Positions 1 to 49,800 of a stretch of DNA of 64,000 nt are shown here, piece after piece. Source of the stretch: an uncultured Candidatus Bathyarchaeia archaeon. Lineage in GTDB: Archaea > Thermoproteota > Bathyarchaeia > Bathyarchaeales > Bathycorpusculaceae. Within the stretch, counting starts at the first letter, position 1. Every line of letters starts with the position of its first letter. The DNA lies in NCBI GenBank assembly GCA_964619695.1, contig CAZUFK010000001.1:20587-84586 (forward strand). Reading direction: 5' to 3'. The translations under genes and the position numbers were made by a program. The notes below the pieces were generated by a model. It had not been told where the DNA came from and did not search any database. It saw only the letters and a list, made by a program, of their open reading frames with translations.

Positions 1-347
1 TCGTCAGCGGTCTGCCTTTGCTGGTGATTCCATTCGTGACAGCGTTTCCGATTCTGCTGGTTCTTGCGTTGGTGTATGGGCTGGGTTTTGCTATGGTGAC
101 TGCCTCTACGCCTGCGCTTGTCACCGAGCTGGTTCCGAGAGAGCTGGTTGGCACTTCGATGGGTTTTCTGGACATGCTAATGGACGTGGGCCAAACCATC
201 GGCCCCATCATCACAGGCTTCATCCTCGCCTCGTACCTTGCCTACCAAGGCTCATTCCCAGCACTCGCACTCGTGCTACTACTCTCCTCGGTAGTCTTCC
301 TCTTGTCAGGCGTGGCGAAGAAGAAACTGGCTACGCGGCACGACTAA
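1..347 (+). CDS. MFS-type transporter, C-terminal fragment (gene begins upstream of window)
   Basis: ORF open to the window edge; hydrophobic TM-rich sequence with an MFS-like loop (..GFLDMLMDVGQTIGPIITGFILA..). Confidence 0.6.
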   Translation, partial: VSGLPLLVIPFVTAFPILLVLALVYGLGFAMVTASTPALVTELVPRELVGTSMGFLDMLMDVGQTIGPIITGFILASYLAYQGSFPALALVLLLSSVVFLLSGVAKKKLATRHD

Positions 348-34700: not shown

Positions 34701-36089
34701 TCACTTACCCTTCTGAGGCTGGGACTTCTCTTTTTGCTTTTCGCCTTCTTTCACGACTTCGACTCCCATTTTTGCGGCGATGGCCAGCTTTGCGGTTTCT
34801 GACAGCGGAAGCTTGCTGAGAAGATTAGATATGTCTACGCCTTGGTTTTGCAGAGCTACAAGCATTGCTCCCAAGTCTGCTCCCATTTCCGCGCTGATCG
34901 GGATGCCGAGAATACTGCTCTCACCGCTGGTTACCAGGTTTATCTTGGCTACTTTTAGTCCTTCTGCTAACGCGGAGAATTGGGCCTTCTTGATTTCTAT
35001 CTGTGCCTTAATCATTTCAAGAGACAGACCGGCGTCTGTGTATTGTTTCAGTGCAACGGCCTTCTTCTCTGTTCCTTCTGCTTCGGCGAAGGCTTTCTGT
35101 TTCGTGACGTCTGCTTCTGCGAATCCAGTCATCTTAGTGACTTCTGCGGTGGCTCCACCTTTCCTCTTTGTGGCTTCCGCCTCTCCTTCTGCGTCAACTA
35201 TTTTGGCTTCTTTTGCAACTTGAGCGGTTCCCACGGTTAAGGCTCTGGTTGCTTCAACCTTGTCTTTGTTGGCCTCCAATTCCGCTTTTGCCACCATTTG
35301 ATCAGACAACTTCTGCCTTTCACCGATTTTCTGATCTTTCTCTATCTGGCGTGACCTATACTCTTCTTCGCTCTGTGCCTTCTGCAACTCCTTATCCTTG
35401 TTCGTAACTGCTTCCACAACTGAGGCGTCTTTTTCGTATTCGGCCACTTGCTTTCTGGTCTCAGCTTCTATGACTTTCGCCTGTCTCTTCTCCAGATCCT
35501 TGATTATCGTATAGCTTTCTATGTCTTTGAAGTGGATTACCTCAAGGTCGATTAGCTTCAGACCCCATCCGTCCAGTTCCTCGTTCACCTTGTTTTCTAC
35601 TGTTTGTGAAAACTGGTCTCTCTGCATCATTATGGCGAACACGTCCATGGCCATGGATGCGTTTCTGGTTATTGCCTCGATGAGGTCTTTGACGTCTTTC
35701 TCAATTGCCGGAAAGCCGATTCCTGTTTCTCCGTGCTCTACTTCTCCCAGCCTCTCGGCAGCCAGGACTGGGTCAGAAATGTTTAGATAGCATCGAACGT
35801 CGCCTGAGAACTTAGCCATGTCCTTGTCTCGCAGGGGAATGTCGTTGATCTGGATTTGAATGTTTTCCAATGGCAGTATGGCTCGTCGCTGGATGACTGG
35901 AACGTGCCAGTACGCGCTCCTGACCACGCCTTCTCTGGAGCAGAAGAGCTTCTTGCCTTTGCCTCTGAACACGACAACGTGAGCCTCGTGCGGCGGAACC
36001 ACCGTGTAGCTCTTGGCAACGATGATTATTACCAACACTACAACGAGCGTGATTATTGTAGCCAGAAATAGTGGATCAGTCAAGATCAT
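34701..36089 (-). CDS. SPFH/Band-7 flotillin-like protein
   Basis: N-terminal TM anchor, SPFH domain, long Ala/Glu/Lys-rich coiled coil (flotillin/YqiK-like). Confidence 0.85.
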   Translation of the reverse strand: MILTDPLFLATIITLVVVLVIIIVAKSYTVVPPHEAHVVVFRGKGKKLFCSREGVVRSAYWHVPVIQRRAILPLENIQIQINDIPLRDKDMAKFSGDVRCYLNISDPVLAAERLGEVEHGETGIGFPAIEKDVKDLIEAITRNASMAMDVFAIMMQRDQFSQTVENKVNEELDGWGLKLIDLEVIHFKDIESYTIIKDLEKRQAKVIEAETRKQVAEYEKDASVVEAVTNKDKELQKAQSEEEYRSRQIEKDQKIGERQKLSDQMVAKAELEANKDKVEATRALTVGTAQVAKEAKIVDAEGEAEATKRKGGATAEVTKMTGFAEADVTKQKAFAEAEGTEKKAVALKQYTDAGLSLEMIKAQIEIKKAQFSALAEGLKVAKINLVTSGESSILGIPISAEMGADLGAMLVALQNQGVDISNLLSKLPLSETAKLAIAAKMGVEVVKEGEKQKEKSQPQKGK

Positions 36090-36294
36090 TGTTTTTTCCG
36101 TTCTCCTTTCTGTTTCTTCTTTCTATGGTCTGATTTGCCCCATGAGTATTTAAACATGCCTATTGTAAAAAAGTTGAGACACTCTGTCAGTCTTTCAAGA
36201 TGCACCACGAGCAAGTTTCTCATGCATCGTCCACGCTAGTTCTTAGAGGATGTGATGCATGCACTAGTGTGCCCATTCATCTCTGGGATTGCCG

Positions 36295-36849
36295 CTAGGG
36301 TTTGGAGGCATTGATCAGATCGCTTGTTATCTCGTATTTTTCGTCGCAGGCGTCCAGAAGCTCATCGTGAACGTACATCGGCGGCGTGCTTGAGTAGTAT
36401 AGGATGGTGACTATTCCTTCTTCTTTTGCGATCTTGACGGCTGGGACGAAATCGCTGTCGCCTGTGACCAGTATGGCTTTGTCGATGATTCCTTTACAGG
36501 AGAGCTTGACAAAATCAACGGACAGGTACACATCCACGTGCTTCTGTTTGAATTCGCCGCCTATCCTTTGAAGTCTTCCCAGCCTGATTTCGAATCTCGG
36601 TGATTTCTTCAGGTAGACTATGAACTTGTCGAATTTGGCGGTTCTTTGGCTTTCAATCGTCGTAGGAGGGTTGCTCTGGTAGGGAGGACAGTTGTAGTAG
36701 TAGGTCCTGACTCTCTGGCAATCGGCTTTCTGGCATAATACGTCTGTGAATTTCTCGTAGCTGAAGGGTGGTCGGTGGAATACGTTCTCAAGCACCTTGT
36801 TGACATAGGCGCCATCAAGGAAAACAACCGCTTTATTCATGTATTGCAC
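36295..36849 (-). CDS. NYN-domain protein (LabA/DUF88-like putative RNase)
   Basis: ..AVVFLDGAYVN.. and ..AILVTGDSDFVPAVKIAKEEG.. are NYN/PIN-like acidic motifs. Confidence 0.7.
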   Translation of the reverse strand: MQYMNKAVVFLDGAYVNKVLENVFHRPPFSYEKFTDVLCQKADCQRVRTYYYNCPPYQSNPPTTIESQRTAKFDKFIVYLKKSPRFEIRLGRLQRIGGEFKQKHVDVYLSVDFVKLSCKGIIDKAILVTGDSDFVPAVKIAKEEGIVTILYYSSTPPMYVHDELLDACDEKYEITSDLINASKP

Positions 36850-37172: not shown

Positions 37173-37862
37173 CTATGCAGTCAGTGGGTAGACTTGTTTT
37201 GCTGTGTATTCTAGGTATTTCTCTTTCTCTGTTTCTGGCAAGTTGAATACAGTGACTGAGGCGTCTCGCGTTATGCCTACGACGTAGCCGTACTCCTTGC
37301 TCCGGGCTACGACGTACCAGAGGTCGCCGTGCTTGCCGTAATCCTCAAACAGCGATGTGTTCGCTAGGTCAGGCCCGTAAAGCGACAGCTTGTTCACGTT
37401 CGGAATGTCTACGTTGTCGAAGAAGGTTATCTTCGTGTCCTCGGCGTTCTTCAGGTGAAACATCCTAAGCGACTCAGGCGAGATCCGCGCCTCCAGAATA
37501 TTGCCAGCCTTCTCGAACAGAATCTCGCTCAGCTTGTTAGCCACAAAATTCGCAAGCCGCTTCTTCTCAACAACCGTCAGGAACACGGCTCCTTCGTGCG
37601 GCGTGAAGCTGAACAGCGCCTCAATCGTCCGCGGTTGAGGAAACACCTTACCTCTATGAAAGACCTGCGTGACGAGGTCGTGCGAATACACGCCCCGCAC
37701 CGTGTTGGCCTTCGCTACGAGTCCCGCAACCTCCGTGACAAGCTCGAACTTGTAATCGCCCTCCTCGTAGGGCTCCTCGACGTGATAGCCCTTCAAAGCC
37801 GAAGCAATCTCGCTCAGCTCCATCGCCTCAGCAAGCCTAAACACCTTACCAGCGACCACCAT
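37173..37862 (-). CDS. Hypothetical protein (229 aa)
   Basis: Clean ORF; no motif recognised. Confidence 0.45.
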   Translation of the reverse strand: MVVAGKVFRLAEAMELSEIASALKGYHVEEPYEEGDYKFELVTEVAGLVAKANTVRGVYSHDLVTQVFHRGKVFPQPRTIEALFSFTPHEGAVFLTVVEKKRLANFVANKLSEILFEKAGNILEARISPESLRMFHLKNAEDTKITFFDNVDIPNVNKLSLYGPDLANTSLFEDYGKHGDLWYVVARSKEYGYVVGITRDASVTVFNLPETEKEKYLEYTAKQVYPLTA

Positions 37863-38142: not shown

Positions 38143-38562
38143 TCAAAGCCCCTGCGTGAGGTCACGTTCTCTCTTCCTCTCGGCGGTCTCTTTGTCCTTT
38201 TTGGCAATGTCCTTGATCATCCTGTTCCACTGCGGGTCGTTCTGCCACAGCGATGCCCCATCTCTCACGGCCTGCTCGTGAGCTTCATCCCTGCCCAGTC
38301 CGTCAGCCCTGTAGGATGTCTCCCTCAGCTCATGGAACAGGATGAACTTCTCGTAAGGCCTCCAAAGCTCAGAAATCCATATCTCGCCAAGCGGCACCCC
38401 AAGCACTTTCGCCGCATTAGTCGTCACGTGCTTGCCTCGGCACGTCACGTTATACGTCGCATTGTAATCCTCTATGACGCTGTGAGGCACGTAGACTATC
38501 CTATAGCCTTCTCCCGCCAGCGTGTCCATCGTCTCCTCATACATGCCTTTTGAGCGTTTCAT
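38143..38562 (-). CDS. Hypothetical protein (139 aa)
   Basis: Clean ORF; ..ILFHELRETSY..H.. could be a metal-binding motif (speculative). Confidence 0.4.
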   Translation of the reverse strand: MKRSKGMYEETMDTLAGEGYRIVYVPHSVIEDYNATYNVTCRGKHVTTNAAKVLGVPLGEIWISELWRPYEKFILFHELRETSYRADGLGRDEAHEQAVRDGASLWQNDPQWNRMIKDIAKKDKETAERKRERDLTQGL

Positions 38563-38686
38563 GTAATCACCACCATCGATTCCGATGGCTGAAACTGCAC
38601 TTTTTAGGCATAAACCTTGCCTAAGCGCTTTAATAAGAGTCTTTCAACCTCATATTACTACCTGAAACAATGAGGATACGCGCCAA

Positions 38687-40615
38687 ATGCTGATACAGGA
38701 GGTCATCCTAGAAAACTTCATGAGCTACGAGTATGCTAGGGTGCCCTTTAAATCAGGCGTGAACGTCATCTGCGGGCCCAACGGCTCAGGCAAATCCTCA
38801 CTCTTATTGGCTGCTTCCGTGGCACTTGGCCAGACCTACACGGAGCGCTCCAAAAAGCTCAGCGACCTCATCCGCTGGGGCAAAGAACAAGCCCGCGTAA
38901 CGCTGATCCTAAACAACGCCAAAAGAGGCAACAACCGCCCCGTCCCAAAATACAACAAAGACCAAATCTTCCTAACACGCGCCATGCGAAAAGACGGTCA
39001 GTACTGGTTCGAGCTGGAAAACCGCGCCGTAACAAAGCAGGACGTGGAAAGGCTTCTGGGCAAGCTTGGCGTTGATCCCGATAACATTCTCATTATCATG
39101 CATCAGAACATGGTGGAGCGGTTCACGGTGCTTTCGGTGCAGGAGAAGCTGCGCATCGTAGAAGCCGCAGTAGGCCTCGAACCTTACCGCGAAAACGTGC
39201 TCCAGGCACAGAGGAAGCTGACGCGCCTACTCAGCCAAGAAGACTCGATAGGCAAGTTGCTTGAACAGGCGGAGCAGACGCTCAACTACTGGCGAGAACA
39301 GTATGACAAGTATCAGGAAAAGAAACAGCTCCAAGTCAAACGGAGGTTTCTGGAGCGCGAGCTCGCGTGGGCTGAAGTCGTGCGCAGGGAAGGCATAGTC
39401 ATGGAAATAGAGGCCAATCTCAAGAAGCAGCACGACATCCTAGCCCAAATCGAGGAGGAAAACAACGACGCAAAAGGCGAACTCGAGGCCTACCAGAACG
39501 GGCTTGCCAAGCTCAGGGACGAAACGAAAACGCTTTTCGAACAGCGCCTCAGCCTCGAACGAGAAAAAACCCGAAACGAATCAACCGTCCCCATCTACCA
39601 GCAACTCCTCAAAGAAACAAACTACATAGAACTCGAAACCGAGAAAGGCAGCCCGCAAACTCACTTCAAGCTACTGAGAACTGAAAACCTCAAGGAACTC
39701 ATACAGGACGCCAACCAGCAAATCTCCAAAATAGACCCCGAAATAGACGCCAACCAGAAGCAACTCGGGCACTTGGAAGAGTCAAGCGAAAAAGTAAGCG
39801 ACCAAGTCCTCCAAAGCCGCATCAAACTCGCACTACTACAGTACAGGAGAGAAAACGCCACAACCGACATGGAAAGGCTCGAAAAAGAACTGAAAACCGT
39901 ACGTACACACGCCAACGAGGCCACGGCCAAGGCCGAGGAAAGCGGAACCCGCATCGCCGTAGTAAAGAGCATAGGCGAAATCTTCGACGAAATGCGCACC
40001 ACCGAAGGCCATTTGGCGGCGCTGGCGGACGTATCAGAAGACATAGAACGCATGTACGAATCCTACTCAAAACTGTACCTAGAGCTGAAGGAAAAAGCCA
40101 AACTCGTGGCCGAAAACCGAGAGAAGACATTGGAAGAGGTTAAGACGCGGATGCAGGCGTGGCGCGAAGTCATCACGAGCCTGCTCACACGCGTGAGCTT
40201 AGAGTATCAGGCCATCCTCGCCGAAGCGCAGGCGCTCGGCGAAGTCAGACTCGCCAACGAGCACGATATAGAAGACGCGGGCCTCGAAATCCTCGTAGGT
40301 TTCAAAGGCGGCAAACCCGTCCCGCTTGACGCGTACACACAGAGCGGAGGCGAACGCACCACGGCAACTATGAGCTTCCTACTGGCCCTGCAAAAACACG
40401 TGCGCTCACCATTCCGCGCAGTAGACGAATACGACATACACATGGATCCGAAAAACCGCGAAGTCATAGCCAAAATGCTCATCTCCACCGTCAAAGACTC
40501 AAACGCACAGTACATCGTGATCACGCCCAGCCAGATAACGTTCGCCAAAGACGAAGTCAACATAATAACCGTCCAGAACATCGACGGCAAATCCATCATC
40601 AGGGAGGTCGCCTAA
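38687..40615 (+). CDS. SMC-superfamily ATPase, short-arm form (about 640 aa, no hinge)
   Basis: Head N-lobe: ..LENFMSYEYARVPFKSGVNVICGPNGSGKSSLL.. (Walker A) and ..LSVQEKLRIVEAAVGLEPYRE.. Head C-lobe: ..QSGGERTTATMSFLLALQ.. (signature) and ..FRAVDEYDIHMD.. (Walker B/D-loop). The central ~350 aa are coiled-coil-like with no hinge motif. Confidence 0.8.
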   Translation: MLIQEVILENFMSYEYARVPFKSGVNVICGPNGSGKSSLLLAASVALGQTYTERSKKLSDLIRWGKEQARVTLILNNAKRGNNRPVPKYNKDQIFLTRAMRKDGQYWFELENRAVTKQDVERLLGKLGVDPDNILIIMHQNMVERFTVLSVQEKLRIVEAAVGLEPYRENVLQAQRKLTRLLSQEDSIGKLLEQAEQTLNYWREQYDKYQEKKQLQVKRRFLERELAWAEVVRREGIVMEIEANLKKQHDILAQIEEENNDAKGELEAYQNGLAKLRDETKTLFEQRLSLEREKTRNESTVPIYQQLLKETNYIELETEKGSPQTHFKLLRTENLKELIQDANQQISKIDPEIDANQKQLGHLEESSEKVSDQVLQSRIKLALLQYRRENATTDMERLEKELKTVRTHANEATAKAEESGTRIAVVKSIGEIFDEMRTTEGHLAALADVSEDIERMYESYSKLYLELKEKAKLVAENREKTLEEVKTRMQAWREVITSLLTRVSLEYQAILAEAQALGEVRLANEHDIEDAGLEILVGFKGGKPVPLDAYTQSGGERTTATMSFLLALQKHVRSPFRAVDEYDIHMDPKNREVIAKMLISTVKDSNAQYIVITPSQITFAKDEVNIITVQNIDGKSIIREVA

Positions 40616-40716
40616 CGCAGTCCAAACGCGAACGCGAAAAACAGGGCAGAGAAAAGCTCGCTCGCATAATTGACACGTGTAGGACGGTTGAGGAGCGTTC
40701 GCTCGACCCGTTCCTG

Positions 40717-41442
40717 GTGGATGTGGACGAAAGCATCAATACGGCCAAGGAGTACTTGCCAGAATGGAAGATCCCTGAAGACCTGTGTCTGGATGCGGAA
40801 ACCATACACCACATCGCCTCCGTCGTCAAGCTGCAGAGCGAATGGGTCAAACACAGGTCAACATCGCTCTACACCGACCCGTTTCTGCTGCAGGAAAAGA
40901 TCATGCGCCTCGACAAGCACCGCCTCGTGGCAACCTTCGTGCAAGCCTGGCGCCCCATCGTCGAATTCGAGCAAATCTCAATCCACAGCATCATGCAATC
41001 ACTACAGTACTGGATCAACCTGCCACCGCTCAGCGAACGCTGGAAGCAGGAACCACCCCTCGAAGTGCAGGTAGGCCAAGCCAGCCGCGAAGAACTCGTC
41101 CAACAACGCATACTCCGCGAACAAATGTTCAGCGAAGAACTCGCAGGCTACTGGGAGCAGCTCAAGACCAGAGTGGCTGAGAAGGGCACTAAGGGCAAGA
41201 TCAGCTACTGGGGCTTCGTGGGCGCCGACACTTATGATGAGACGGTGGACCGCGCCTTCATGACCGCCTTCCTAGTCACCTACGGCTACGCCACGCTGGA
41301 AATCCACCCGCTTGAAGAAGAAATGTTCATCAAGCCAAACGAGAAGCCTGAAACCAAGATCAGCAACAAGCAGCTCGTCAGCGTGCCCATACCCATACCC
41401 GTTGAAGACTGGCAGAAATGGAAAAGAGGAGAGTTAAAGTGA
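40717..41442 (+). CDS. ScpA-like kleisin (SMC partner), putative
   Basis: C-terminal ..RAFMTAFLVTYGYATLEIHPLEEEMFIKP.. resembles the ScpA winged-helix pattern. GTG start at 40717 is uncertain, since the frame stays open upstream to the SMC-like stop. Confidence 0.5.
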   Translation: MDVDESINTAKEYLPEWKIPEDLCLDAETIHHIASVVKLQSEWVKHRSTSLYTDPFLLQEKIMRLDKHRLVATFVQAWRPIVEFEQISIHSIMQSLQYWINLPPLSERWKQEPPLEVQVGQASREELVQQRILREQMFSEELAGYWEQLKTRVAEKGTKGKISYWGFVGADTYDETVDRAFMTAFLVTYGYATLEIHPLEEEMFIKPNEKPETKISNKQLVSVPIPIPVEDWQKWKRGELK

Positions 41443-41999
41443 GCAAACGCAAGGCCACATACGCCTCCAAAGTCAAGAGAGCCACACACATGCTCTTCTA
41501 CAAACGCCACACGAAACCAGGCGTAAAAGGCTGGGAACTCCGCAAGGCGCTAGGCTCGGATTACCCTAAAGTGCTGAAAGTGCTGGACGATTACCTGAAG
41601 GAACTGGACCTGAAGGTGCAGACTGTCTTCGAGAATGAGAAGCCTGTTGAGAAGCCTAGTCTCGAACAGCTGGACAAGGCACGGTTCCTCATAACCCTCA
41701 GAGGCGAACTCACGCCCAAAGAAGCAAAAATGGTCGGCTGGCGCATAGACGACCTTGCAGGCCTCGCCATAGCCATCTCACATATAATATCCAACAAAGG
41801 CAAGGCACCACGAAAGGAAGTCGAAGACTTACTCCGCGAAAAGCTCCCAAACTGGAAAGTAGGCCTCAACATCGACCGCTACATACGCTACGGATACCTA
41901 ACACAAGACGAAAGCGAACAACTATACCTAGACTGGCGAACACGCGCCGAAGTAGACCAAAAAGCCCTAATAGACCTGTTGCTAAGAACCGAAGCATAG
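41439..41999 (+). CDS. ScpB-like tandem winged-helix (kite) protein, putative
   Basis: Two wHTH-like units (..KGWELRKALGSDYPKVLKVLDDYLKELDLKV.. and ..KEVEDLLREKLPNWKVGLNIDRYIRYGYL..). GTG start overlaps the upstream TGA stop (GTGA) and is preceded by GGAGAG. Confidence 0.5.
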   Translation: MSKRKATYASKVKRATHMLFYKRHTKPGVKGWELRKALGSDYPKVLKVLDDYLKELDLKVQTVFENEKPVEKPSLEQLDKARFLITLRGELTPKEAKMVGWRIDDLAGLAIAISHIISNKGKAPRKEVEDLLREKLPNWKVGLNIDRYIRYGYLTQDESEQLYLDWRTRAEVDQKALIDLLLRTEA

Positions 42000-42011: not shown

Positions 42012-42206
42012 CTACTTTCTCACTTTGTGATAAGCAAAGGCAATCATGTCGATGATCAAGATTACGACAAGAATGAGCAGAGGGCTTCCGACGAACTGCT
42101 CTGCAGCTGATCCGTCTGCGGCATGAACCGTGCCAACAACTGTTGAAAGGAGAAACGTCAGACACAGGGTCAGAGCCGTTCGTTTTCCCATAAACAAACG
42201 CACCAT
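42012..42206 (-). CDS. Small hypothetical membrane protein (64 aa)
   Basis: Two hydrophobic helices; 7 nt downstream of nusA. Confidence 0.3.
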   Translation of the reverse strand: MVRLFMGKRTALTLCLTFLLSTVVGTVHAADGSAAEQFVGSPLLILVVILIIDMIAFAYHKVRK

Positions 42207-42212
42207 CTGAGG

Positions 42213-42650
42213 TCACGTTATGCTGACGTTCTGTATATCAAAGTATCTTTTTGCTAAGAAGCGCAGACGTTCCGCGTTTCTGCCGTTCTTGCCAATGGCA
42301 ACGCCCTTGTCCTTCGGGTTGACGGCCACGACTGCGATTGATTTGCCGTCTGGCTTTTCGGTTATGCGAACCTCTTTCACAAGTGCTGGTTTCAGGGCGT
42401 TCTTGATGAATTGGGCTGGGTCTTCTGAATATTCGATGATTTCCTGTTTTTTGCCTGTCATTCTTTCGAGTTGGTGGATGTTTCTTCCGCCTCGGCCTAT
42501 GGCCACGCCTACCTGTCCCTCACTCACAACGAACAATACCCGTCCTTGTTCTTCGTCGATTATGCAGTCTTTCACGTTTGCGCTTGTTATGCTTTCAAAC
42601 AAGGCGATAAAACGCATTTCGTTGCTGGTGATCTTTATTCCAGTTGTCAT
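42213..42650 (-). CDS. nusA: Archaeal NusA-like transcription termination factor (two KH domains)
   Basis: Two KH GxxG motifs (..IGRGGRNI.., ..IGKNGRNA..); 4-nt overlap with rpl30e. Confidence 0.85.
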   Translation of the reverse strand: MTTGIKITSNEMRFIALFESITSANVKDCIIDEEQGRVLFVVSEGQVGVAIGRGGRNIHQLERMTGKKQEIIEYSEDPAQFIKNALKPALVKEVRITEKPDGKSIAVVAVNPKDKGVAIGKNGRNAERLRFLAKRYFDIQNVSIT

Positions 42651-42982
42651 TCGTTTCCTTCCGTGGGCTCTTCTGGCTCTGCAGGTTCCGTCAATTTGAG
42701 AATCTCAGAGTCTCCTGCCTCTCTTATACTTAACGCTGAGACCGCAAAAGGTTTGCCACAGACTCCCCCGAGATCTATCGACGAGTCCCTGTACACTATC
42801 AATGGAACGTTCGACAGTTTGCAGTAGTATTCGATGTCTGCACTTACGTTTTTCGGACAGTTCGAGGCTACAACTATCAGCTTGGCCTTACCTGACTGGG
42901 CATTCTGTATTGCAGAGTTAGCCCCGAACGAGACTTTTCCCGTTTTGACCGCGGCGGCGATTGCCTTGTCTATGTCTATCAC
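42647..42982 (-). CDS. rpl30e: 50S ribosomal protein L30e
   Basis: ..KLIVVASNCPKNVSADIEYYCKLSNVPLIVY.. is the L30e/L7Ae fold; classic position between rpoA and nusA. Confidence 0.85.
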   Translation of the reverse strand: MIDIDKAIAAAVKTGKVSFGANSAIQNAQSGKAKLIVVASNCPKNVSADIEYYCKLSNVPLIVYRDSSIDLGGVCGKPFAVSALSIREAGDSEILKLTEPAEPEEPTEGNE

Positions 42983-45900
42983 TTGCTTTCACCCTTCTTC
43001 AGTTCGAACGTGCTCATGTATAACTCCACGAGTCCTGTGCCTATTGGAATAGATTGCCCTACTATTACGTTTTCGGTCACGCCCCCCAGCGGGTCGCTTT
43101 CGCCCTTGACTGCAGCCTCAACAATGTTCGGCACTGTGATCTCAAAGGCAGCTCTCGCAAGGACACTTGACTTCTGGCCACTGATGCCGTGCCTGCCTAT
43201 CTGCTGGACCTCGCCCGTGGACGTCATCATGTCAGCCACAAGCATTACATGGCGAACATCAACATCCAAGCCCTGCTCTTCTAGAACGCTTTTCGCCTCA
43301 TGTGTCAACGCGTTCCTTGCAGCTTCGATGCCGATGGTTTTGGCAATTTCGTGAACGTTGTTGGTGGTGGTTCTAGTGGTGTCGACGCCTATTATCTCAA
43401 GGACCTTGGGAAGGTTTGAACCGTCGGTTCTTATCACCCATTCGCCGTGCTCCTCGGTGACCAGCACTCGTTTCAGACCTGGGACTCCTTTAACGTGGAC
43501 GGCTGAGACCTTGTCCAGCAGCTTCTTCAGCGCCTCAACCTTTTTCGGCCTTATGTGAATGTTGTTGGTCTTCACCTTAATCGTGGCATTCTGTATCTCC
43601 AACGCGGTCTTCAGCTCCGCCATGGTTACTTCGCGGTCTTCCATCATTGTCTTGTCAAGCTCAATCACTATTTCCTCATGCATTGGATCCTTGTATATTG
43701 CCTTGGCCACATCCTCTATCGACGTGAAAACTATCCGACGGGCAATCTTCACGGCGGCTTCCCTGCTCTTCCTATGCTCATCAGCCAAGTAGATGGTCAT
43801 AATGGGAGTAGATGGAATGCGCCTTGCGTCAACGATTTCGATCAGCCGCGGCAGGCCTAGGGTGACGTTTTGTTCTCTGACACCTGCGTAGTGGAAGGTT
43901 CTGAGCGTCATCTGCGTGCCTGGTTCGCCTATCGACTGAGCCGCTACGATGCCAACAGCCTCTCCGGGCTCCATCAATGCATGCTTGTAATGTTCAACTG
44001 TCAGCTTGATGGCCTTGTCCACGCCGTCTGTGCTCAGTTTTGACTTGGCTGAATTCTGCTTCAGCTCGCCCACGAGGATGGGGGTAAGCTGGTTCTCGAC
44101 TTCTTCCAGCTGTTTCTTGACGTACTCGACCGTGGCTGGCTTGCCTTTTTCAGTGGCTATTCTTATTTGGTCGACAAGTCTGCTCACGTTCACAGCCTTT
44201 CCGTGGTCACTCTTGGCAGGGTCAACGCCGTCTTCGCCGTACTTGAATTGGATGATGTCGCCTGCCGAGTTTCTGACCGTGCTATCATATTCTAGGCGCA
44301 AGTGTTCAAGGGCGTTAATCAGCCGTCTCTGCATGTAGCCGCTCTGTTGGGTTCGGACGGCTGTGTCCACGAGGCCTTCTCTGCCTCCCATAGCGTGGAA
44401 GAAGAACTCGATAACGTCAAGCCCCGTCTGGTAGGATGAGTACACGAAGCCTCTTGCCTTCGGGCTTGGGTCGCCAGCCTTGAAATGTGGCAACGCACGC
44501 CCAACGTAGCCTCGCAGGATCCGTTTTCCGCGCACAGCCTGCTGGCCTACGCAGGCGCTGATTTGGCCGATGTTTAGGCTTGAGCCTCTGGCGCCTGTCC
44601 GAGTCATAACGATGCCCGAATTGTCCAGAGTAAAGTCTTGATCAGCTATCTTGCCAGACCGGTCTCGGGCGTTGGCAAGCTCGTTCATGACGTATATTTC
44701 AAACGAGTCTTCAAGCGTCTGTCCCGGAAGCCTTGGCAGTGTTCCCTTACGATAGCTTTCGATCAGGCCTTCTATCTTGTTTTCGATCTCTTCCATGGTC
44801 TTCTTGATCTTGTCTTCAGCCTTCGGCGAGAGAACCAGCTCGTCATACGAGTATGTGAAGCCACGCACTGATATGAACAGCTTTAGCATTCTGGTTATTC
44901 GGTTGAGGAATTCGCGCCCTGCCTGGGTTCCGTAGTCCTTGATTATTCTGTGCAGAAGACTCTCGGACTGTTCGGCTCCTATCGAGCGTCTGTCTATGAC
45001 ACCGCTCACGAGCTGTCCGTTCTTCACAACCACATAGGCGTCGAACGGACACTTCTCTTCCAGACACTTGGAACAGCCTTGGCAAATGCTCGCCTTCAAA
45101 ACATAATTCAGATCTTTCGGCAGGAAAAGACTGAAAATCTGCTTGCCGCTCCAAAGCGGTTGCGGCGACTTGATCTTAGGCTCCGGCAGAGGCCCTTCAT
45201 ACTTCGATCCCAGTAACAGCCTGTTGACTTCATTTCGCGTCAGATAGCTTGATTGTCTCGTAAACAGGTACGCGGAGGTTATGAAATCCCGGATCGCACC
45301 TATTATAGGCCCACCGAATCTGGGCGAAAGTATCTGATCCTGAACCTGCATCAGCAGCAGCGCTTCAGTTCGCGCCTCCTCGCTTTGAGGCACGTGAAGG
45401 TTCATTTCGTCGCCGTCAAAGTCTGCGTTGTATGGCGGGCAAACGCACAGGTGCAGGCGGAACGTTTTGTATGGCAAGACGCGAACGTAGTGGGCCATTA
45501 TTGACATGCGGTGAAGCGAAGGCTGGCGGTTGAAGATGGCTATGTCGCCGTTCCTCAGGTGCCTTTCCACAATGAAGCCGGGCTCCACAGCCTCAGCGAT
45601 CTTTTCCCGGTCGATGACGAATTCGAGCCTTATGCGCTTGCCATCTGGCCTGATAATGTAAAGCGTGCCAGGATACTTCTCTGGCCCGTTCACGACGAGT
45701 CTTCGCATCTCTTCGATGTTCCACTCTGTCACTTTTTCAGGCACGGACAACCGCATGGCTATCTCTGCCGGAACGCCGACCTCGTTTATGTCGAGGTTCG
45801 GGTCTGGAGACACGACGGTACGGGCTGAGAAGTCAACGCGTTTTCCTGAGAGGTTGCTTCTGAATCGGCCTTCCTTTCCTTTCAATCGTTGAGACAGCGT

Positions 45901-46803
45901 CTTCAGTGCTCTTCCTGAGCGATGCCTGGCCGGAGGTATTCCTGATGCTTCATTGTTGAAGTAAGTCGTCACGTGGTACTGCAGAAGCTCGGAGAGGTCC
46001 TGAATGATGAGTGTAGGCGCGCCTGCATCCATGTTCTCTTTCAGTCTCTGGTTGATGCGGATTATGTCCACAAGTTTGTGGGTCAGATCGTCTTCTGAAC
46101 GAATGCCTGATTCCAGCGTGATTGAGGGTCGAACGTAAACTGGCGGGACAGGCAGCACTTGGAGAACCATCCACTCCGGACGTGCCGTCTTTGGGTTGAA
46201 CCCCAGAATCTGGAGGTCCTCATCGGATATGCGTTCCATCCTTTCTCTGATCATGCTAGGCGTCAGTGGTTCTGAGCCACTTTCAGGGATCTGTTCGCTG
46301 AATTTCGTTGGCTTCTCGAAAGTTGTCTTGTACTGCACGGCGCCGCAGTGAGGACACTGCTTTGTCTTCGTCTCTTGAACGATCTCCTTGTATATCTCGT
46401 CTGGAACCATGCCTAAGAGTTCGCGAGTCCTGTCGATCCTCGTCTGAACGCGTTTGATGGCCTCGTCCGCGAGCAATATTCGACCGCAATTTCGGCAGTT
46501 GGTTCGCAGAAGGTCATGGATTATCTTTGTGAATTCAATATGCACGATAGGGACGGCGAGTTCAATGTGGCCGAAATGGCCGGGACATCGTATAGCGGTG
46601 TTGCCGCAGGTCTTGCATCTTTGCCTAGGCTCGAGGGTTCCAAGCCTGCCGTCCATGAGTCCAGCAGTGATTGGGGCACCATCCTCGTCGTAGGTGTCTG
46701 GCGTCTGTATCTCAACCACTGATAGCCTGCGTATGTCTTGAGGCGAGAAAAGACCGAAGTAGACGCCGTCAACAATTTTATGTATTGTCTCTTCAACTGT
46801 CAT
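42979..46803 (-). CDS. rpoA: DNA-directed RNA polymerase subunit A as a single fused A'+A'' polypeptide (1274 aa)
   Basis: N-terminus has the A' zinc motif (..CKTCGNTAIRCPGHFGHIEL..) and catalytic ..NADFDGDEMNLH.. The same ORF continues without a stop into A''-type sequence (..GEAVGIVAAQSIGEPGTQMTLRTFHYAG.. to ..ENVIVGQSIPIGTG..). Confidence 0.9.
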   Translation of the reverse strand: MTVEETIHKIVDGVYFGLFSPQDIRRLSVVEIQTPDTYDEDGAPITAGLMDGRLGTLEPRQRCKTCGNTAIRCPGHFGHIELAVPIVHIEFTKIIHDLLRTNCRNCGRILLADEAIKRVQTRIDRTRELLGMVPDEIYKEIVQETKTKQCPHCGAVQYKTTFEKPTKFSEQIPESGSEPLTPSMIRERMERISDEDLQILGFNPKTARPEWMVLQVLPVPPVYVRPSITLESGIRSEDDLTHKLVDIIRINQRLKENMDAGAPTLIIQDLSELLQYHVTTYFNNEASGIPPARHRSGRALKTLSQRLKGKEGRFRSNLSGKRVDFSARTVVSPDPNLDINEVGVPAEIAMRLSVPEKVTEWNIEEMRRLVVNGPEKYPGTLYIIRPDGKRIRLEFVIDREKIAEAVEPGFIVERHLRNGDIAIFNRQPSLHRMSIMAHYVRVLPYKTFRLHLCVCPPYNADFDGDEMNLHVPQSEEARTEALLLMQVQDQILSPRFGGPIIGAIRDFITSAYLFTRQSSYLTRNEVNRLLLGSKYEGPLPEPKIKSPQPLWSGKQIFSLFLPKDLNYVLKASICQGCSKCLEEKCPFDAYVVVKNGQLVSGVIDRRSIGAEQSESLLHRIIKDYGTQAGREFLNRITRMLKLFISVRGFTYSYDELVLSPKAEDKIKKTMEEIENKIEGLIESYRKGTLPRLPGQTLEDSFEIYVMNELANARDRSGKIADQDFTLDNSGIVMTRTGARGSSLNIGQISACVGQQAVRGKRILRGYVGRALPHFKAGDPSPKARGFVYSSYQTGLDVIEFFFHAMGGREGLVDTAVRTQQSGYMQRRLINALEHLRLEYDSTVRNSAGDIIQFKYGEDGVDPAKSDHGKAVNVSRLVDQIRIATEKGKPATVEYVKKQLEEVENQLTPILVGELKQNSAKSKLSTDGVDKAIKLTVEHYKHALMEPGEAVGIVAAQSIGEPGTQMTLRTFHYAGVREQNVTLGLPRLIEIVDARRIPSTPIMTIYLADEHRKSREAAVKIARRIVFTSIEDVAKAIYKDPMHEEIVIELDKTMMEDREVTMAELKTALEIQNATIKVKTNNIHIRPKKVEALKKLLDKVSAVHVKGVPGLKRVLVTEEHGEWVIRTDGSNLPKVLEIIGVDTTRTTTNNVHEIAKTIGIEAARNALTHEAKSVLEEQGLDVDVRHVMLVADMMTSTGEVQQIGRHGISGQKSSVLARAAFEITVPNIVEAAVKGESDPLGGVTENVIVGQSIPIGTGLVELYMSTFELKKGESK

Positions 46804-46804
46804 G

Positions 46805-49800
46805 TTAAGCCTTCTCCTTGAGTTTTAGCTTGGGCGCTACGCATAGACTGGCCAGCTCTTGAAGCAGAAGCTTGAAAGCGTAGGAAACTATGACAGGGGA
46901 GATTTTGGCCTTGTCTTCGCAGAGTCTGCACACGTACTTTCGTTGTTTCATGTCGTAGTAGGATATGTGGCCACAGTTTTCGCAGATGTAGAGCGTGTAC
47001 TTGTCTGATTCTTCGAGCAATCGGTCTCGTAGGAGCATGGCTGCGCCGTGGCCGATGAGGCAGTCGCGTTCCATTTCGCCGAACCTCAGGCCACCGCCTC
47101 TGGCTCGTCCTTCGGTAGGTTGCCTGGTCAGCATCTGCACCTGTCCGCGCGCTCTAGCGTGAATCTTGTCAGCTACCATGTGATGCAGCTTCTGGTAGTA
47201 GACGAGTCCGACGTATATGTCTGCCACGAATTTTTCTCCTGTTATGCCGTTGTAGAAGACCTCGCTGCCGGTGTTGCTGAATCCCATCTTGACAAGTGCT
47301 TTTCTGAGATCGTCAGGTCCTTCATTCGAGAACGGTGTTCCGTCCACAGGTTTTCCTCTTATGGCCGCGACTTTTCCTGCAAGTGATTCGACAAACTGTC
47401 CCACAGTCATCCTTGAGGGGATAGCGTGAGGGTTGACTACTATGTCTGGGACTATGCCGTCTTCTGTGAACGGCAAGTTTTCCTCTGGCACAATCAAGCC
47501 GATGACGCCCTTCTGCCCGTGACGGGAGGCGAACTTGTCTCCCAGCTCGGGAATGCGCTGGTCGCGGACTCTCACTTTGACGAGTTTGCTTCCTTCGCCA
47601 GATTCGGTGATGAATATGGCGTCAACGATTCCGGTTTCTGAGGGGCGCATGTCGGTGGAGGTGTCTCGCATTGAAGGCCCTTTTACTTCGAATTCTTTGT
47701 ATTCTTCAAGGAATCTGGGTGGGCTGACTCGGCCGACGAGGACGTCTCCGCCTGCGACGTTTGCTTCTAGTCCTATTATTCCGTCAGGTTCGAGAAGCCT
47801 GTAGTACTGTTCTCCTCTGAATCCTCGTGTTCCAGGCTCAGGCAGGATGAATTTGTCTTTCAGTCCTCCGAGGTATTGGCGGCATTCTGCCTCATATATC
47901 CTGTAGAAGGTTGATCGGAACAGGCCTCTTTCTATTGAGGCTTTGTTGAAGATGAGCGCGTCTTCCATGTTGTAGCCTTCGAAGGACAAGACTGCAACCA
48001 CGCAGTTCTGTCCTGACGGCCGCAGTTTGTACCCCATAGTCTCCATCAGCGCAGTTTCGACCAGAGGCGCCTGCGGATAATGCAACGTGTGTGACCTCGA
48101 GTCTACGCGTTGCTGGAAGTTTGTGGCGTAGATGCCCAAAGCTTGCTTGGCCATCGCAGCCTGATACGAGTTTCGCGGCGACTGGTTGTGCTCCGCGTAC
48201 GGGATTGTTGATGCGCATATTCCGAGAATAGTGTAGGTTGCGATTTCCAGATGTGTGTGATCCTTGGTTACGTCGTCAAGGTGCAGGGCAACGTACGCGT
48301 TTTCTTCCTCTTCAGCGTCCAAGTATTCGATTATGCCTGCCTTGACCAAGTCTTCCCAAGAGTTTTCTCCCGAAGCAATCTTGGCAACGTACTCTGGCTG
48401 GAGCTTTGATATGCCGTTGTCCTCTATTATGAGAGGTCTTCTGACTCTTCCTTCGTCGCAGTTGACGCATACTTCTTCTCTTTCGCCGATGACTTTGGAG
48501 AAGTGGGCTATGTTGGCCTCGGTCGAGATTTCTCCGTTTCTCCGTTTTTGCCTGAATTCCTGAACCAGCTCTGCTGGTGAGGTGTGGTAGCCGATGATGT
48601 TTCCGTCAACGAATACTTTTGCGCCTGTGAGTTTTATGGTTTCGTTTGATTCGTAGACTGGCGCTGTGCCCATGCTGAATAGTGTTTGTTTGATTTTCTC
48701 TGGGTTCACGCCTACAGATATGCAGGCTGACAAGGCGAGATTCTTGACCAGTCCGCAGTTGGAGCCTTCAGGCGTCTCGTTCGGGCACAAGCGACCCCAA
48801 TGAGTTGGATGCAGGTCTCTTGCCTCGAAGTTAGGTTGGCTTCTGCTCAGAGGCGACTGTAGCCTGCGGAGGTGGCTGAGTGTGGAAATGTGGTTTGTTC
48901 TGTCCAGAAGCTGGGTCACGCCGACTCTTCCTCTTCCCCAGTTTCCAGTGGCAAGCGAATGCTGGAATCTTTCGCTCACTATTCCCGGTCTTACGGCTAC
49001 CGAGACCGTTATTATTGGTCCTTTGACGCCTATGCGTTCAAGCTGGTATTTTATGTCTCGGACGAGGTTTCGGAAGGCCACTCTGAAGAGGTCAGCGAGC
49101 AACGGGCCTGCAAGCCTAAGCCGCTTGTTCTTGAAGTGGTCCTTGTCGTCTGGTGTTCTTCTTCCGAGTTTCAGTTCTATAGCTCTGCATGCCATCTCGC
49201 CGAGGAACAGGGCTTTTTCCTTTCTATTCTGGGCCGTTCTGCCTATGTGCGGCAGGAAGTTCTTGTCTATGGCAGTTTCTGCCTTCTGTGTGCGGTATTC
49301 CTCAACTTGCCCGTGGGCAACACGGTTTCCTATGAACAGGATGGCGTCTTTCGCGTTGTCCACGCCTATGGCTTTTTCGAAGGAGTCTTCCAGCTCTCTC
49401 TGTATTTCCTTCTCAAGAGATATGGCTTCGGCTATTTCCTTGTCCGATTCCAGGCCTAGGGCACGCATCAGCACGATGAATGGGATTTCGGAGGGCACAC
49501 CTGGGACTGAGACGTATATGGCTCCGTCGGGTTTGAGTTTCAGCTCTATTCTTGCTCTGAAGCCGACGGTGGTTGAGAATATTTTGGACTGGTAGAGGGG
49601 TGTGGCTCCTTTCTCGTCGATGTCTACGAGTATGCGATTCGGCGCCAAGTCCTCCATGGCCACGATTACGCGTTCTGAACCGTTTACGACGAAGTATCCG
49701 CCTGGATCATCTGGGTCTTCGCCGCAGGCGATAAGCTCCTCTCGCGATAGCTGTGAGAGGAAGCACAGTTTGGATTTGAGCATGACAGGTATGTTTCCGA

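What the first reader, a model, noticed from the sequence alone, without database searches (positions are those of the whole stretch)
38687..41999. Compact SMC-family ATPase operon with ScpA-like kleisin and ScpB-like kite genes
The 642-aa protein carries both halves of a true SMC head, closer to SMC proper than to Rad50 or RecF. It has only about 350 aa of coiled coil and no hinge motif, so it is roughly half the size of canonical archaeal Smc. It is followed by a protein whose C-terminus fits the ScpA winged-helix pattern, then a tandem-wHTH ScpB-like protein. The ScpB-like GTG start overlaps the upstream stop as GTGA with its own SD, implying translational coupling. A hinge-less mini-SMC with its own kleisin/kite set is not a textbook archaeal condensin. 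It could be a distinct DNA-organising or plasmid/chromosome-segregation module.
Basis: partly seen in the sequence, partly recalled or inferred. Interest (0 to 1): 0.75.

Follow-up and report, generated by a model that had tools for sequence, protein, structure and literature searches.

The report
Hinge-less archaeal SMC5/6-like operon
This is a real three-gene operon for a chromosome-handling SMC machine in a Bathyarchaeia archaeon; it belongs to the known archaeal relatives of eukaryotic SMC5/6, but its ATPase has half-length arms and no hinge, which the papers I could search do not mention.

Summary
Three translationally coupled + strand genes encode a 642-aa SMC-family ATPase (38687-40615), a kleisin and a small winged-helix protein (41439-41999).

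The ATPase is confidently modelled (pLDDT 88). A roughly 150-residue antiparallel coiled coil turns back through a 12-residue loop. That loop is the most variable part of the protein, and there is no hinge and no CxxC hook.

The naming needs correcting. The family profile scores best against eukaryotic SMC6 and SMC5, not prokaryotic Smc or Rad50. The kleisin's C-terminal domain matches Nse4, not ScpA. The third protein has no ScpB signal, and only weak fold hits to Nse1/Nse3.

The kleisin gene is 275 codons, starting at 40615, not at the GTG at 40717. Its start codon is ACG where relatives have ATG, and two independent metagenomes show the same ACG.

The operon fits the "SMC5/6-related" archaeal SMC-kleisin-kite complexes already described from comparative genomics. 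Short forms (548-685 aa) occur in several Thermoproteota lineages, and hinge-bearing relatives carry homologous kleisin and kite genes.

I found no paper that notes the hinge loss. Function is untested. The most likely role is a housekeeping, ATP-gated DNA clamp.

The parts
38629..38636 (+). Possible archaeal TATA-like element (TTTAATAA) about 55 nt upstream of the SMC ATG. A GAGGA Shine-Dalgarno-like motif lies at 38672-38676. Inferred only.
   Evidence: Read directly from the sequence. No archaeal promoter tool was available, so this is not tested.
38687..40615 (+). SMC-family ATPase, 642 aa: the short, hinge-less form of the SMC5/6-related archaeal SMC.
   Evidence: ORF. Pfam SMC_N 8e-36. 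AF2 pLDDT 88.4. Foldseek hits to SMC heads. Family profile vs PDB: SMC6 273 bits, Smc5 263, Pyrococcus Smc 225, Rad50 67.
38774..38797 (+). Walker A / P-loop GPNGSGKS (aa 30-37).
   Evidence: Motif scan. Invariant columns in A4.
39179..39643 (+). Ascending coiled-coil helix (aa 165-319).
   Evidence: AF2 secondary structure.
39644..39679 (+). Apex loop (aa 320-331), where a hinge or hook would sit. It has low pLDDT and is variable, with indels.
   Evidence: AF2. Highest entropy and gaps at aa 311-330 among 120 close homologs. The extra residues of hinge-bearing P0420 and of the CxxC form P0371 insert mostly at window positions 313-340.
39680..40225 (+). Descending coiled-coil helices (aa 332-419, 429-445, 453-513), with two breaks near the head that resemble an SMC joint.
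   Evidence: AF2. The best Foldseek hit is the P. yayanosii Smc head with coiled coil and joint.
40343..40354 (+). ABC signature motif SGGE (aa 553-556).
   Evidence: Invariant in A4.
40421..40435 (+). Walker B / D-loop region VDEYD (aa 579-583).
   Evidence: Invariant D580 and E581.
40615..41442 (+). Kleisin, 275 codons, starting at ACG 40615 and overlapping the SMC stop (TAACG). It has an N-terminal ScpA-like helical domain and a C-terminal Nse4-like winged helix.
   Evidence: Homologs are 274-276 aa and cover the upstream 33 codons. TAATG in relatives vs TAACG here. The same ACG is found in L088 and L089. Nse4_C in 30/30 homologs. Yeast Nse4 E 1.2e-4 and ScpA N-domain E 0.029.
41227..41418 (+). 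C-terminal winged-helix domain of the kleisin (Pfam Nse4_C match, aa ~205-268).
   Evidence: Residue-level alignment to yeast Nse4 and human EID3.
41439..41999 (+). Candidate kite subunit, 186 aa from GTG 41439, overlapping the kleisin stop (GTGA). The secondary-structure pattern fits two winged-helix domains.

Best explanation
The three genes encode the Bathyarchaeial version of the archaeal SMC5/6-related SMC-kleisin-kite complex, in a form whose SMC subunit has lost the hinge and the distal half of the arm.

**Shown**
- The 642-aa protein has a complete SMC-type ABC ATPase head.
- Its roughly 150-residue antiparallel coiled coil (about 20-25 nm, my estimate from helix length) turns back through a short, non-conserved loop.
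- The next gene encodes a kleisin with a ScpA-like N-terminal domain and an Nse4-like C-terminal winged helix.
- The third gene encodes a small, very conserved protein that always accompanies the kleisin.
- All three are translationally coupled.

**Inferred**
- Two SMC subunits engage their heads on ATP.
- One kleisin bridges the neck of one head and the cap of the other.
- A dimer of the third protein binds the middle of the kleisin.
- Together they clamp DNA on the engaged heads, as in Smc-ScpAB, MukBEF and Smc5/6.
- With no hinge or hook, the arms are not permanently joined at their tips. The complex would therefore work as a head-proximal, kleisin-closed clamp, or through zipped arms, rather than as a hinge-closed ring.

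Core-genome position and strong conservation point to a housekeeping role in chromosome maintenance or repair. That role is not tested.
For: **SMC identity and architecture**
- Motifs and Pfam SMC_N.
- AF2 pLDDT 88.4, with helices 165-319 and 332-513 joined by a 12-aa loop.
- The apex is the most variable segment.
- Alignment to hinge-bearing P0420 places the missing residues at the apex.
- Foldseek matches SMC heads.

**SMC5/6 affinity**
- Family profile vs PDB: SMC6 273 bits and Smc5 263, against Pyrococcus Smc 225, SMC2 210 and Rad50 67.
- After the archaeal relatives, the next hits in 1.84 billion representatives include eukaryotic SMC5/6-sized proteins. P0475 is confirmed as insect SMC6.
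- In a rough neighbour-joining head tree, the short forms plus P0420 fall in a clade with these proteins (bootstrap 94), and canonical SMCs fall outside.

**Kleisin**
- Pfam Nse4_C in 30/30 homologs.
- Yeast Nse4 E 1.2e-4, EID3 4.5e-4, ScpA N-domain 0.029.

**Third protein**
- Homologous across short and hinge-bearing operons.

**Operon conservation**
- L001, L002, L088 and L089 are close relatives beside the RNA polymerase operon. L003, L004 and L085 carry short forms in other lineages. L083 and L087 carry hinge forms.

**Literature**
- SMC5/6-related archaeal SMCs in TACK archaea, including Bathyarchaeota (10.1101/2021.05.15.444277).
- Archaeal operons of an SMC5/6-related SMC, an Nse4-related kleisin and an Nse1/3-related kite. 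Most Bathyarchaeia rows show adjacent Nse4-related and Nse1/3-related genes (10.1101/2024.01.07.573240).
Against: - No experiment exists on any member of the family. Complex formation, stoichiometry and DNA clamping are all inferred by analogy.
- The AF2 model is a monomer and cannot show whether the arm tips dimerise.
- The neighbour-joining tree is crude: 377 columns, corrected p-distances, and some weak nodes.
- I could not confirm that the exact proteins here are the ones counted in the published tables.
- The kleisin's ACG start might mean reduced or altered expression in this lineage.
Confidence: 0.75

Rival explanations
1. It is a shortened version of the canonical prokaryotic condensin Smc-ScpA-ScpB.
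For: SMC_prok_A is the best NCBIfam hit (176 bits). The kleisin N-terminal domain weakly matches ScpA (E 0.029). The best single Foldseek hit is a Pyrococcus Smc head.
Against: The SMC_prok_A score is far below the cutoff of 729. The profile ranks SMC6 and SMC5 above Smc. The kleisin C-terminus matches Nse4_C, and no ScpA Pfam hit appears. No ScpB hit appears. Published tables show that Bathyarchaeia usually carry a separate ScpB-like kite in addition.
Confidence: 0.08
2. It is an SMC-based anti-plasmid or anti-phage defence module of the Lamassu, Wadjet or MADS type.
For: The ATPase hits PADLOC mad3 (98 bits) and LmuB (63 bits), and its length is close to LmuB. JetB appears among the weak fold hits of the third protein.
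Against: Only the ATPase hits PADLOC; genes 2 and 3 do not. No nuclease or effector gene is adjacent. In close relatives the operon has a fixed place beside the rpoB-rpoA-L7Ae-NusA genes. The listed homologs are very conserved (third protein 82-100% identity), with 3,593 significant hits in all. That is unlike variable defence islands.
Confidence: 0.05
3. The ATPase is a Rad50-, ASRP/ClsN- or arcadin-like protein that acts alone, and the two downstream genes are unrelated neighbours.
For: Its short length and lack of a hinge resemble ASRP and Rad50-like proteins. ASRP, Rad50 and arcadin-4 models give weak hits. Some relatives (P0371 in L084, P0444 in L086) have no kleisin or kite gene beside them.
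Against: ASRP scores 45 bits against a cutoff of 300, arcadin-4 scores 39 against 860, and Rad50 scores at most 83 against 700 or more. There is no CxxC hook and no Mre11 neighbour. The start and stop codons overlap, and the three-gene order is conserved down to 33-36% SMC identity (identities). The kleisin similarity is specific.
Confidence: 0.05
4. The short length is an artefact: a truncated, misassembled or decaying gene.
For: The window comes from a metagenome-assembled contig, and the middle gene has a non-canonical start codon.
Against: About 60 full-length representatives of 548-685 aa at 35-64% identity carry both head halves. All 120 listed close homologs are 640-680 aa. The AF2 model is confident and compact. 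The same sequence, including the ACG, is found in independent metagenomes.
Confidence: 0.01

Closest known systems
SMC5/6-related archaeal SMC complexes (Yoshinaga & Inagaki 2021, 10.1101/2021.05.15.444277; van Hooff et al. 2025, 10.1101/2024.01.07.573240)
   Same: It occurs in TACK/Thermoproteota archaea, including Bathyarchaeia. The operon is an SMC, an Nse4-related kleisin and a small kite. The SMC heads group with eukaryotic SMC5/6. Hinge-bearing relatives (L083, L087, and the Asgard protein P0454) share homologous kleisin and kite genes.
   Different: The SMC here is 642 aa with no hinge and half-length arms. Neither paper's text mentions short or hinge-less forms. I could not check their sequence lists against these proteins.
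Eukaryotic SMC5/6 holocomplex (Smc5-Smc6-Nse1-Nse3-Nse4 plus Nse2, Nse5/6)
   Same: These are the best-scoring solved relatives of the ATPase and of the kleisin C-terminal domain. The weak fold hits of the third protein are led by Nse1 and Nse3.
   Different: This operon has one SMC gene, so presumably a homodimer, and one kite gene. There is no hinge. No Nse2, Nse5 or Nse6 gene is adjacent, and the kite has no RING domain. Arm length is about half.
Prokaryotic Smc-ScpAB condensin
   Same: The three-subunit SMC-kleisin-kite logic is the same. The kleisin N-terminal domain resembles ScpA. The head fold and a joint-like break in the coiled coil are shared.
   Different: It fails the Smc equivalog cutoffs, has no hinge, gives no ScpA or ScpB family hits, and its kleisin C-terminus is Nse4-like.
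Rad50/SbcC and archaea-specific SMC-related proteins (ASRP: ClsN, Sph1/2; PMC9389158)
   Same: These are also SMC-superfamily ATPases without a globular hinge. ASRPs are of similar size. Some long relatives of the window protein (P0371, P0376, P0388) carry a central CxxC like a zinc hook.
   Different: The window protein has no CxxC. Its scores to the ASRP and Rad50 models are far below cutoff. It has kleisin and kite partners instead of Mre11.
"Hinge-less" SMC variants reported from marine Actinobacteria (PMC12153180)
   Same: [quoted passage not shown]
   Different: Those variants are bacterial and branch within Actinobacteria. That paper does not mention kleisins. I did not compare the sequences.

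Membership tests
SMC superfamily ABC ATPase | Split head with an N-terminal Walker A and a C-terminal signature motif and Walker B, joined by an antiparallel coiled coil. | tested here: met
   Motifs at aa 30-37, 553-556 and 579-583. Pfam SMC_N spans aa 3-627. AF2 fold. Foldseek E 1e-21 to SMC heads.
Canonical prokaryotic Smc (NCBIfam TIGR02169/TIGR02168) | Whole-protein score at or above the curated cutoff. | tested here: not met
   176.6 bits against 729.4, and 140.3 against 567.35.
Canonical prokaryotic Smc (NCBIfam TIGR02169/TIGR02168) | Central globular hinge dimerisation domain flanked by arms of about 300 aa. | tested here: not met
   AF2 shows a 12-residue loop at aa 320-331. The apex is variable. 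The residues missing relative to P0420 map to the apex.
Smc-ScpAB partners | Kleisin of the ScpA family and kite of the ScpB family. | tested here: not met
   No ScpA or ScpB Pfam or NCBIfam hits. Only a weak match to the ScpA N-domain in PDB (E 0.029).
SMC5/6-related archaeal SMC complex | SMC head sequences group with eukaryotic SMC5/6 rather than with canonical SMC. | tested here: met
   Profile ranking in PDB. Eukaryotic SMC6 among the next-best representatives. Neighbour-joining tree, bootstrap 94, with canonical SMCs outside. The tree is rough and no maximum-likelihood test was run.
SMC5/6-related archaeal SMC complex | Adjacent Nse4-related kleisin. | tested here: met
   Nse4_C in 30/30 homologs, best E 3e-6, although individual scores are below the Pfam gathering cutoff. 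Yeast Nse4 E 1.2e-4 and EID3 4.5e-4 with a diverse profile. The gene overlaps the SMC stop.
SMC5/6-related archaeal SMC complex | Adjacent Nse1/3-related kite (tandem winged helix). | tested here: inconclusive
Eukaryotic SMC5/6 holocomplex | Smc5-Smc6 heterodimer, Nse1 RING plus Nse3 MAGE heterodimer, Nse2 on the arm, and Nse5/6. | tested here: not met
   The operon has a single SMC gene and a single kite gene. The neighbouring genes give no Nse2, Nse5 or Nse6 hits.
ASRP (ClsN/Sph) and arcadin-4 | NCBIfam cutoff and, for most ASRPs, a zinc-hook CxxC at the apex. | tested here: not met
   ASRP 45.3 bits against 300, and Rkd4 38.7 against 860. There is one Cys only, at position 29.
Rad50/SbcC | Zinc hook, Mre11/SbcD partner, and family score. 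| tested here: not met
   Rad50 models score at most 82.6 bits against cutoffs of 700 or more. There is no CxxC and no Mre11-like neighbour.
Lamassu / Wadjet / MksBEFG defence systems | SMC-like ATPase together with system-specific partners or effectors (LmuA/LmuC, JetA/B/D, MksG). | tested here: not met
   PADLOC hits the ATPase only (mad3 98 bits, LmuB 63, JetC 30). Genes 2 and 3 get no hits. No nuclease is nearby.

The most novel reading that the evidence does not exclude
A natural SMC that keeps its kleisin and kite partners but has no hinge, no hook and only half-length arms. It is widespread in Thermoproteota and is among the closest prokaryotic relatives of eukaryotic SMC5/6.

If the complex is functional as encoded, hinge-mediated ring closure is dispensable for at least one class of SMC-kleisin machines. 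In a rough tree, a Bathyarchaeial sub-lineage also seems to have re-lengthened the arm and acquired a central CxxC, which would echo the experimentally shown interchangeability of hinge and zinc hook.
Probability: 0.45. Interest if true: 0.72.

Novelty: new variant of a known kind. Interest (0 to 1): 0.55.

Why it matters
Current SMC models treat the hinge as the permanent dimerisation point. It closes the SMC-kleisin ring and takes part in DNA loading. A conserved, apparently housekeeping SMC-kleisin-kite set without a hinge gives a compact natural system of about 1,100 residues for the three subunits. It could be used to ask what the head, kleisin and kite module can do alone.

Its closeness to SMC5/6 also bears on how that eukaryotic complex arose. 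The published evolutionary accounts treat these archaeal proteins as ordinary SMCs and do not mention their architecture.

Related short forms occur in Conexivisphaerales and Korarchaeia. To my knowledge the former includes a cultured species, so experiments may be feasible.

The finding does not establish a function. The family itself is not new.

Tried and rejected
- **Genome scan.** It returned only two true relatives (L003, L004) among 80 loci. I therefore could not chart species distribution or test co-occurrence with canonical SMC that way.
- **Source contig.** An exact look-up of the window's own SMC protein (P0001) found nothing on record.
- **Third protein, sequence searches.** Shallow and diverse profiles of the third protein against PDB sequences gave only chance hits. 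Pfam at E up to 10 gave nothing relevant.
- **Third protein, structure.** Its AF2 model, built from an alignment of sequences at least 82% identical, was poor (pLDDT 53). The two fold searches on it are only suggestive.
- **Kleisin.** The shallow kleisin profile against PDB gave only E 0.85 to EID3. Adding divergent operon partners was needed to reach Nse4.
- **Tree building.** The first tree script timed out. It was rerun with head segments only.
- **Considered and rejected.**
  - A frameshift fusion of SMC and kleisin. The kleisin frame is open upstream into the SMC gene, but relatives have a plain ATG overlapping the SMC stop.
  - Sequencing error as the cause of the ACG. It recurs in two independent assemblies.
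- **Literature.** Searches for hinge-less archaeal SMC5/6-like proteins found nothing specific.


Full report
**Observation**

The region 38687-41999 holds three + strand ORFs.

The first ORF (38687-40615, 642 aa) has Walker A GPNGSGKS at aa 30-37, the ABC signature SGGE at 553-556 and Walker B VDEYD at 579-583. It has a single cysteine, so no CxxC hook. It matches Pfam SMC_N over aa 3-627 (8e-36). In NCBIfam the best model is SMC_prok_A at 176.6 bits. Rad50 models reach at most 82.6 bits, RecF 49, ASRP 45 and arcadin-4 39. None reaches its curated cutoff.

**The middle gene is longer than it looks**

The ORF listing starts the second ORF at GTG 40717 (241 aa). Its frame, however, stays open upstream into the SMC gene.

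All 120 listed homologs of an N-terminally extended query are 274-276 aa, nearly all 275. All cover at least 99% of the extended query, including the 33 upstream codons. Those codons are strongly conserved, with the motif GREKLxRIIETCKSVEERSLDPF.

In related loci the kleisin ATG overlaps the SMC stop as TAATG. The window has TAACG, so the start position reads ACG at 40615-40617, with GGAGGT 7-8 nt upstream.

The same ACG is present in two independent JGI metagenome contigs that differ from the window at other positions (L088, L089). It is therefore a real feature of this lineage and not a sequencing error.

The upstream 33 residues align to the N-terminal domain of ScpA in PDB entry 6ivh. They are part of the functional protein, so I place the gene at 40615-41442.

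**The third gene**

Conservation among homologs begins at (V/M)SKRKA. Several homologs start with M there. The start is therefore GTG 41439, which overlaps the kleisin stop as GTGA. The protein is 186 aa.

**Architecture of the ATPase**

I built the AlphaFold2 model on a 53-sequence alignment spanning 23-93% identity. Mean pLDDT is 88.4. The model shows:
- an N-terminal head half (aa 1-164);
- one long helix (165-319);
- a 12-residue loop (320-331, pLDDT about 42);
- returning helices 332-419, 429-445 and 453-513;
- the C-terminal head half.

There is no globular hinge. Among 120 close homologs, aa 311-330 have the highest entropy and the only indels. The segments next to the head (165-230 and 440-515) are highly conserved.

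Pairwise alignment to a hinge-bearing relative (P0420, 982 aa) puts most of its extra residues at window positions 313-339.

Foldseek against the PDB returns SMC heads. The list is led by the P. yayanosii Smc head with coiled coil and joint, followed by Smc5/6, cohesin, condensin and Rad50.

**Which SMC is it?**

I searched a profile of the short family against PDB sequences. The bit scores are:

| PDB protein | Bits |
|---|---|
| Human SMC6 | 273.6 |
| Yeast Smc6 | 271.5 |
| Yeast Smc5 | 263 |
| Human SMC5 | 237 |
| Pyrococcus Smc construct | 225 |
| SMC2 | 210 |
| SMC3 | 192 |
| Rad50 | 67 |

The Pyrococcus entry is a 540-aa construct, so its score is not strictly comparable. The full-length SMC1-4 proteins, however, all score lower than SMC5/6.

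In the exhaustive search of 1.84 billion representatives, 129 proteins score below 1e-30. They fall into these groups:
- about 60 full-length representatives of 548-685 aa at 35-64% identity;
- a few proteins of 1016-1047 aa with a central CxxC;
- three with a globular middle (P0420 982 aa, P0446 928 aa, P0454 835 aa);
- proteins of 1050-1140 aa at 23-29% identity.

One protein from the last group, P0475, is an insect SMC6. P0454 is from an Asgard archaeon.

I built a rough neighbour-joining tree of head segments (377 columns, 100 bootstraps). It gives these groupings:
- The main short clade (bootstrap 75) is sister to P0420 (bootstrap 71).
- That group sits inside a clade with the eukaryote-sized SMC5/6-like proteins (bootstrap 94).
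- Bacterial and archaeal canonical SMCs taken from the fetched loci fall outside.

**Kleisin**

All 30 homologs tested hit Pfam Nse4_C. The best E-value is 3e-6, though individual scores sit below the gathering cutoff of 26 bits.

A profile that adds the divergent operon partners hits yeast Nse4 (E 1.2e-4), human EID3/NSE4B (4.5e-4) and, at the N-terminus, ScpA (0.029). No other PDB protein scores better than E 0.1. This is a kleisin with an Nse4-type C-terminal winged helix.

**Third protein**

It is the most conserved of the three, at 82-100% identity among the top 120 hits. It has no Pfam, NCBIfam, PADLOC or PDB sequence match.

Clearly homologous proteins occupy the third position in every operon examined, both short and hinge-bearing.

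The AF2 model is poor (pLDDT 53), because the alignment was shallow. Its secondary-structure order fits two winged-helix domains.
- **Foldseek.** The list is led by MAGE-G1/Nse3, Nse3, Nse1 and JetB, with MukE lower down. None is significant (best E 6.7e-3, TM about 0.3).

I treat the kite assignment as likely, not shown.

**Conservation and distribution**

The three-gene order, with overlapping stops and starts, recurs in four settings:
- close Bathyarchaeia relatives beside the rpoB-rpoA-L7Ae-NusA genes (L001, L002, L088, L089);
- a "Thaumarchaeota UBA160" MAG (SMC 582 aa) and a Thermofilales MAG;
- a soil contig (SMC 654 aa);
- hinge-bearing forms (L083, L087).

Source names for short-form clusters include Bathyarchaeota, Korarchaeota/Methanodesulfokora, Conexivisphaerales and one MAG labelled Halobacteria.

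Some relatives lack adjacent partner genes. These are the CxxC form in L084 and P0444 in L086.

**Comparison with the literature**

Yoshinaga & Inagaki defined "SMC5/6-related" archaeal SMC homologs, mostly in TACK archaea and including Bathyarchaeota. They kept sequences of 500-1500 aa and analysed 293 unambiguously aligned positions.

Van Hooff et al. describe archaeal operons of an SMC5/6-related SMC, an Nse4-related kleisin and an Nse1/3-related kite. Their Table S3 lists adjacent Nse4-related and Nse1/3-related genes for most Bathyarchaeia. It usually lists a separate ScpB-like kite as well.

The operon here fits that description, so the family is known. Neither text mentions short or hinge-less forms. 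Three further literature searches found no such report for archaea. A bacterial "hinge-less SMC" clade has been reported from marine metagenomes.

**Mechanism**

Shown:
- the domain content of the three proteins;
- the coupling of the three genes;
- the conservation of the operon.

Inferred by analogy with solved SMC-kleisin-kite complexes:
- an SMC homodimer engages its heads on ATP;
- one kleisin bridges the neck of one head and the cap of the other;
- a kite dimer sits on the kleisin;
- DNA is clamped on the heads.

Without a hinge or hook, a ring closed at the arm tips is not expected unless the arm tips pair. The monomer model cannot address that.

The fixed core-genome position and the strong conservation favour a housekeeping role over defence. 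PADLOC hits are limited to the ATPase, and no effector gene is adjacent.

**Not tested**

I could not test whether this genome also has a canonical smc-scpAB, because only 64 kb is available. The window holds no other large SMC-like ORF.

**Verdict**

It is a member of a bioinformatically known but experimentally untouched archaeal SMC5/6-like family. Its hinge-less, half-length architecture appears not to have been pointed out.

Noticed in passing
window 40613-40617: The kleisin start codon is ACG (TAACG) where relatives have ATG (TAATG), or GTG in one case. The same ACG is present in two independent metagenome contigs (L088, L089). The 33 codons before the next in-frame start codon (GTG 40717) are intact and conserved. 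This suggests non-AUG initiation, or termination-reinitiation at the SMC stop.
   Followed up: partly
P0371, P0376, P0388 (locus L084 2105-5248): Bathyarchaeota relatives of 1016-1047 aa have a long coiled coil with a central C-[DE]-[KR]-C-G-S motif, like a Rad50/ASRP zinc hook. In the rough head tree they nest inside the short hinge-less clade (bootstrap 100 with P0366). In L084 no kleisin or kite gene follows.
   Followed up: partly
L087 7784-8938: In a hinge-bearing operon the kleisin is 384 aa. It carries an N-terminal MarR-type winged-helix domain fused to the kleisin body, with Nse4_C at E 7.7e-5.
   Followed up: no
L004 3951-6788 (-) and L083 10599-12962 (+): A large Lhr-type DEAD-box helicase gene lies next to the SMC-kleisin-kite operon in two distant loci. 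This may hint at a DNA-repair association, but it rests on two cases only.
   Followed up: no
window 37173-37862 (-): A 229-aa protein with no Pfam hit is transcribed divergently from the SMC gene. It is 74% identical to the gene in the same position in L001. It is not linked to the operon in more distant loci.
   Followed up: partly
window 38143-38562 (-): A 139-aa ORF with no Pfam hit lies between the 229-aa gene and the SMC gene. L001 and L002 have no gene called at this position.
   Followed up: no
window 42012-50170 (-): A run of genes converges on the operon: a 64-aa ORF (also called in L088 and L089), a NusA-like KH protein (42213-42650), an L7Ae/L30e-family protein (42647-42982), an unsplit 1274-aa RpoA (42979-46803) and RpoB (46805-50170).
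   Followed up: no
L086 432-2333; P0444, P0459: A second group of short forms (628-633 aa, 26-29% identity to the window protein) groups weakly with the Asgard hinge-bearing P0454 rather than with the main short clade. In L086 it has no kleisin or kite gene downstream. This may be an independent shortening or a different family.
   Followed up: no
window 34701-36849 (-): A Band 7/SPFH protein (462 aa) and an NYN-domain protein (184 aa) lie upstream. A Band 7 gene is also nearby in L001 and L002.
   Followed up: no
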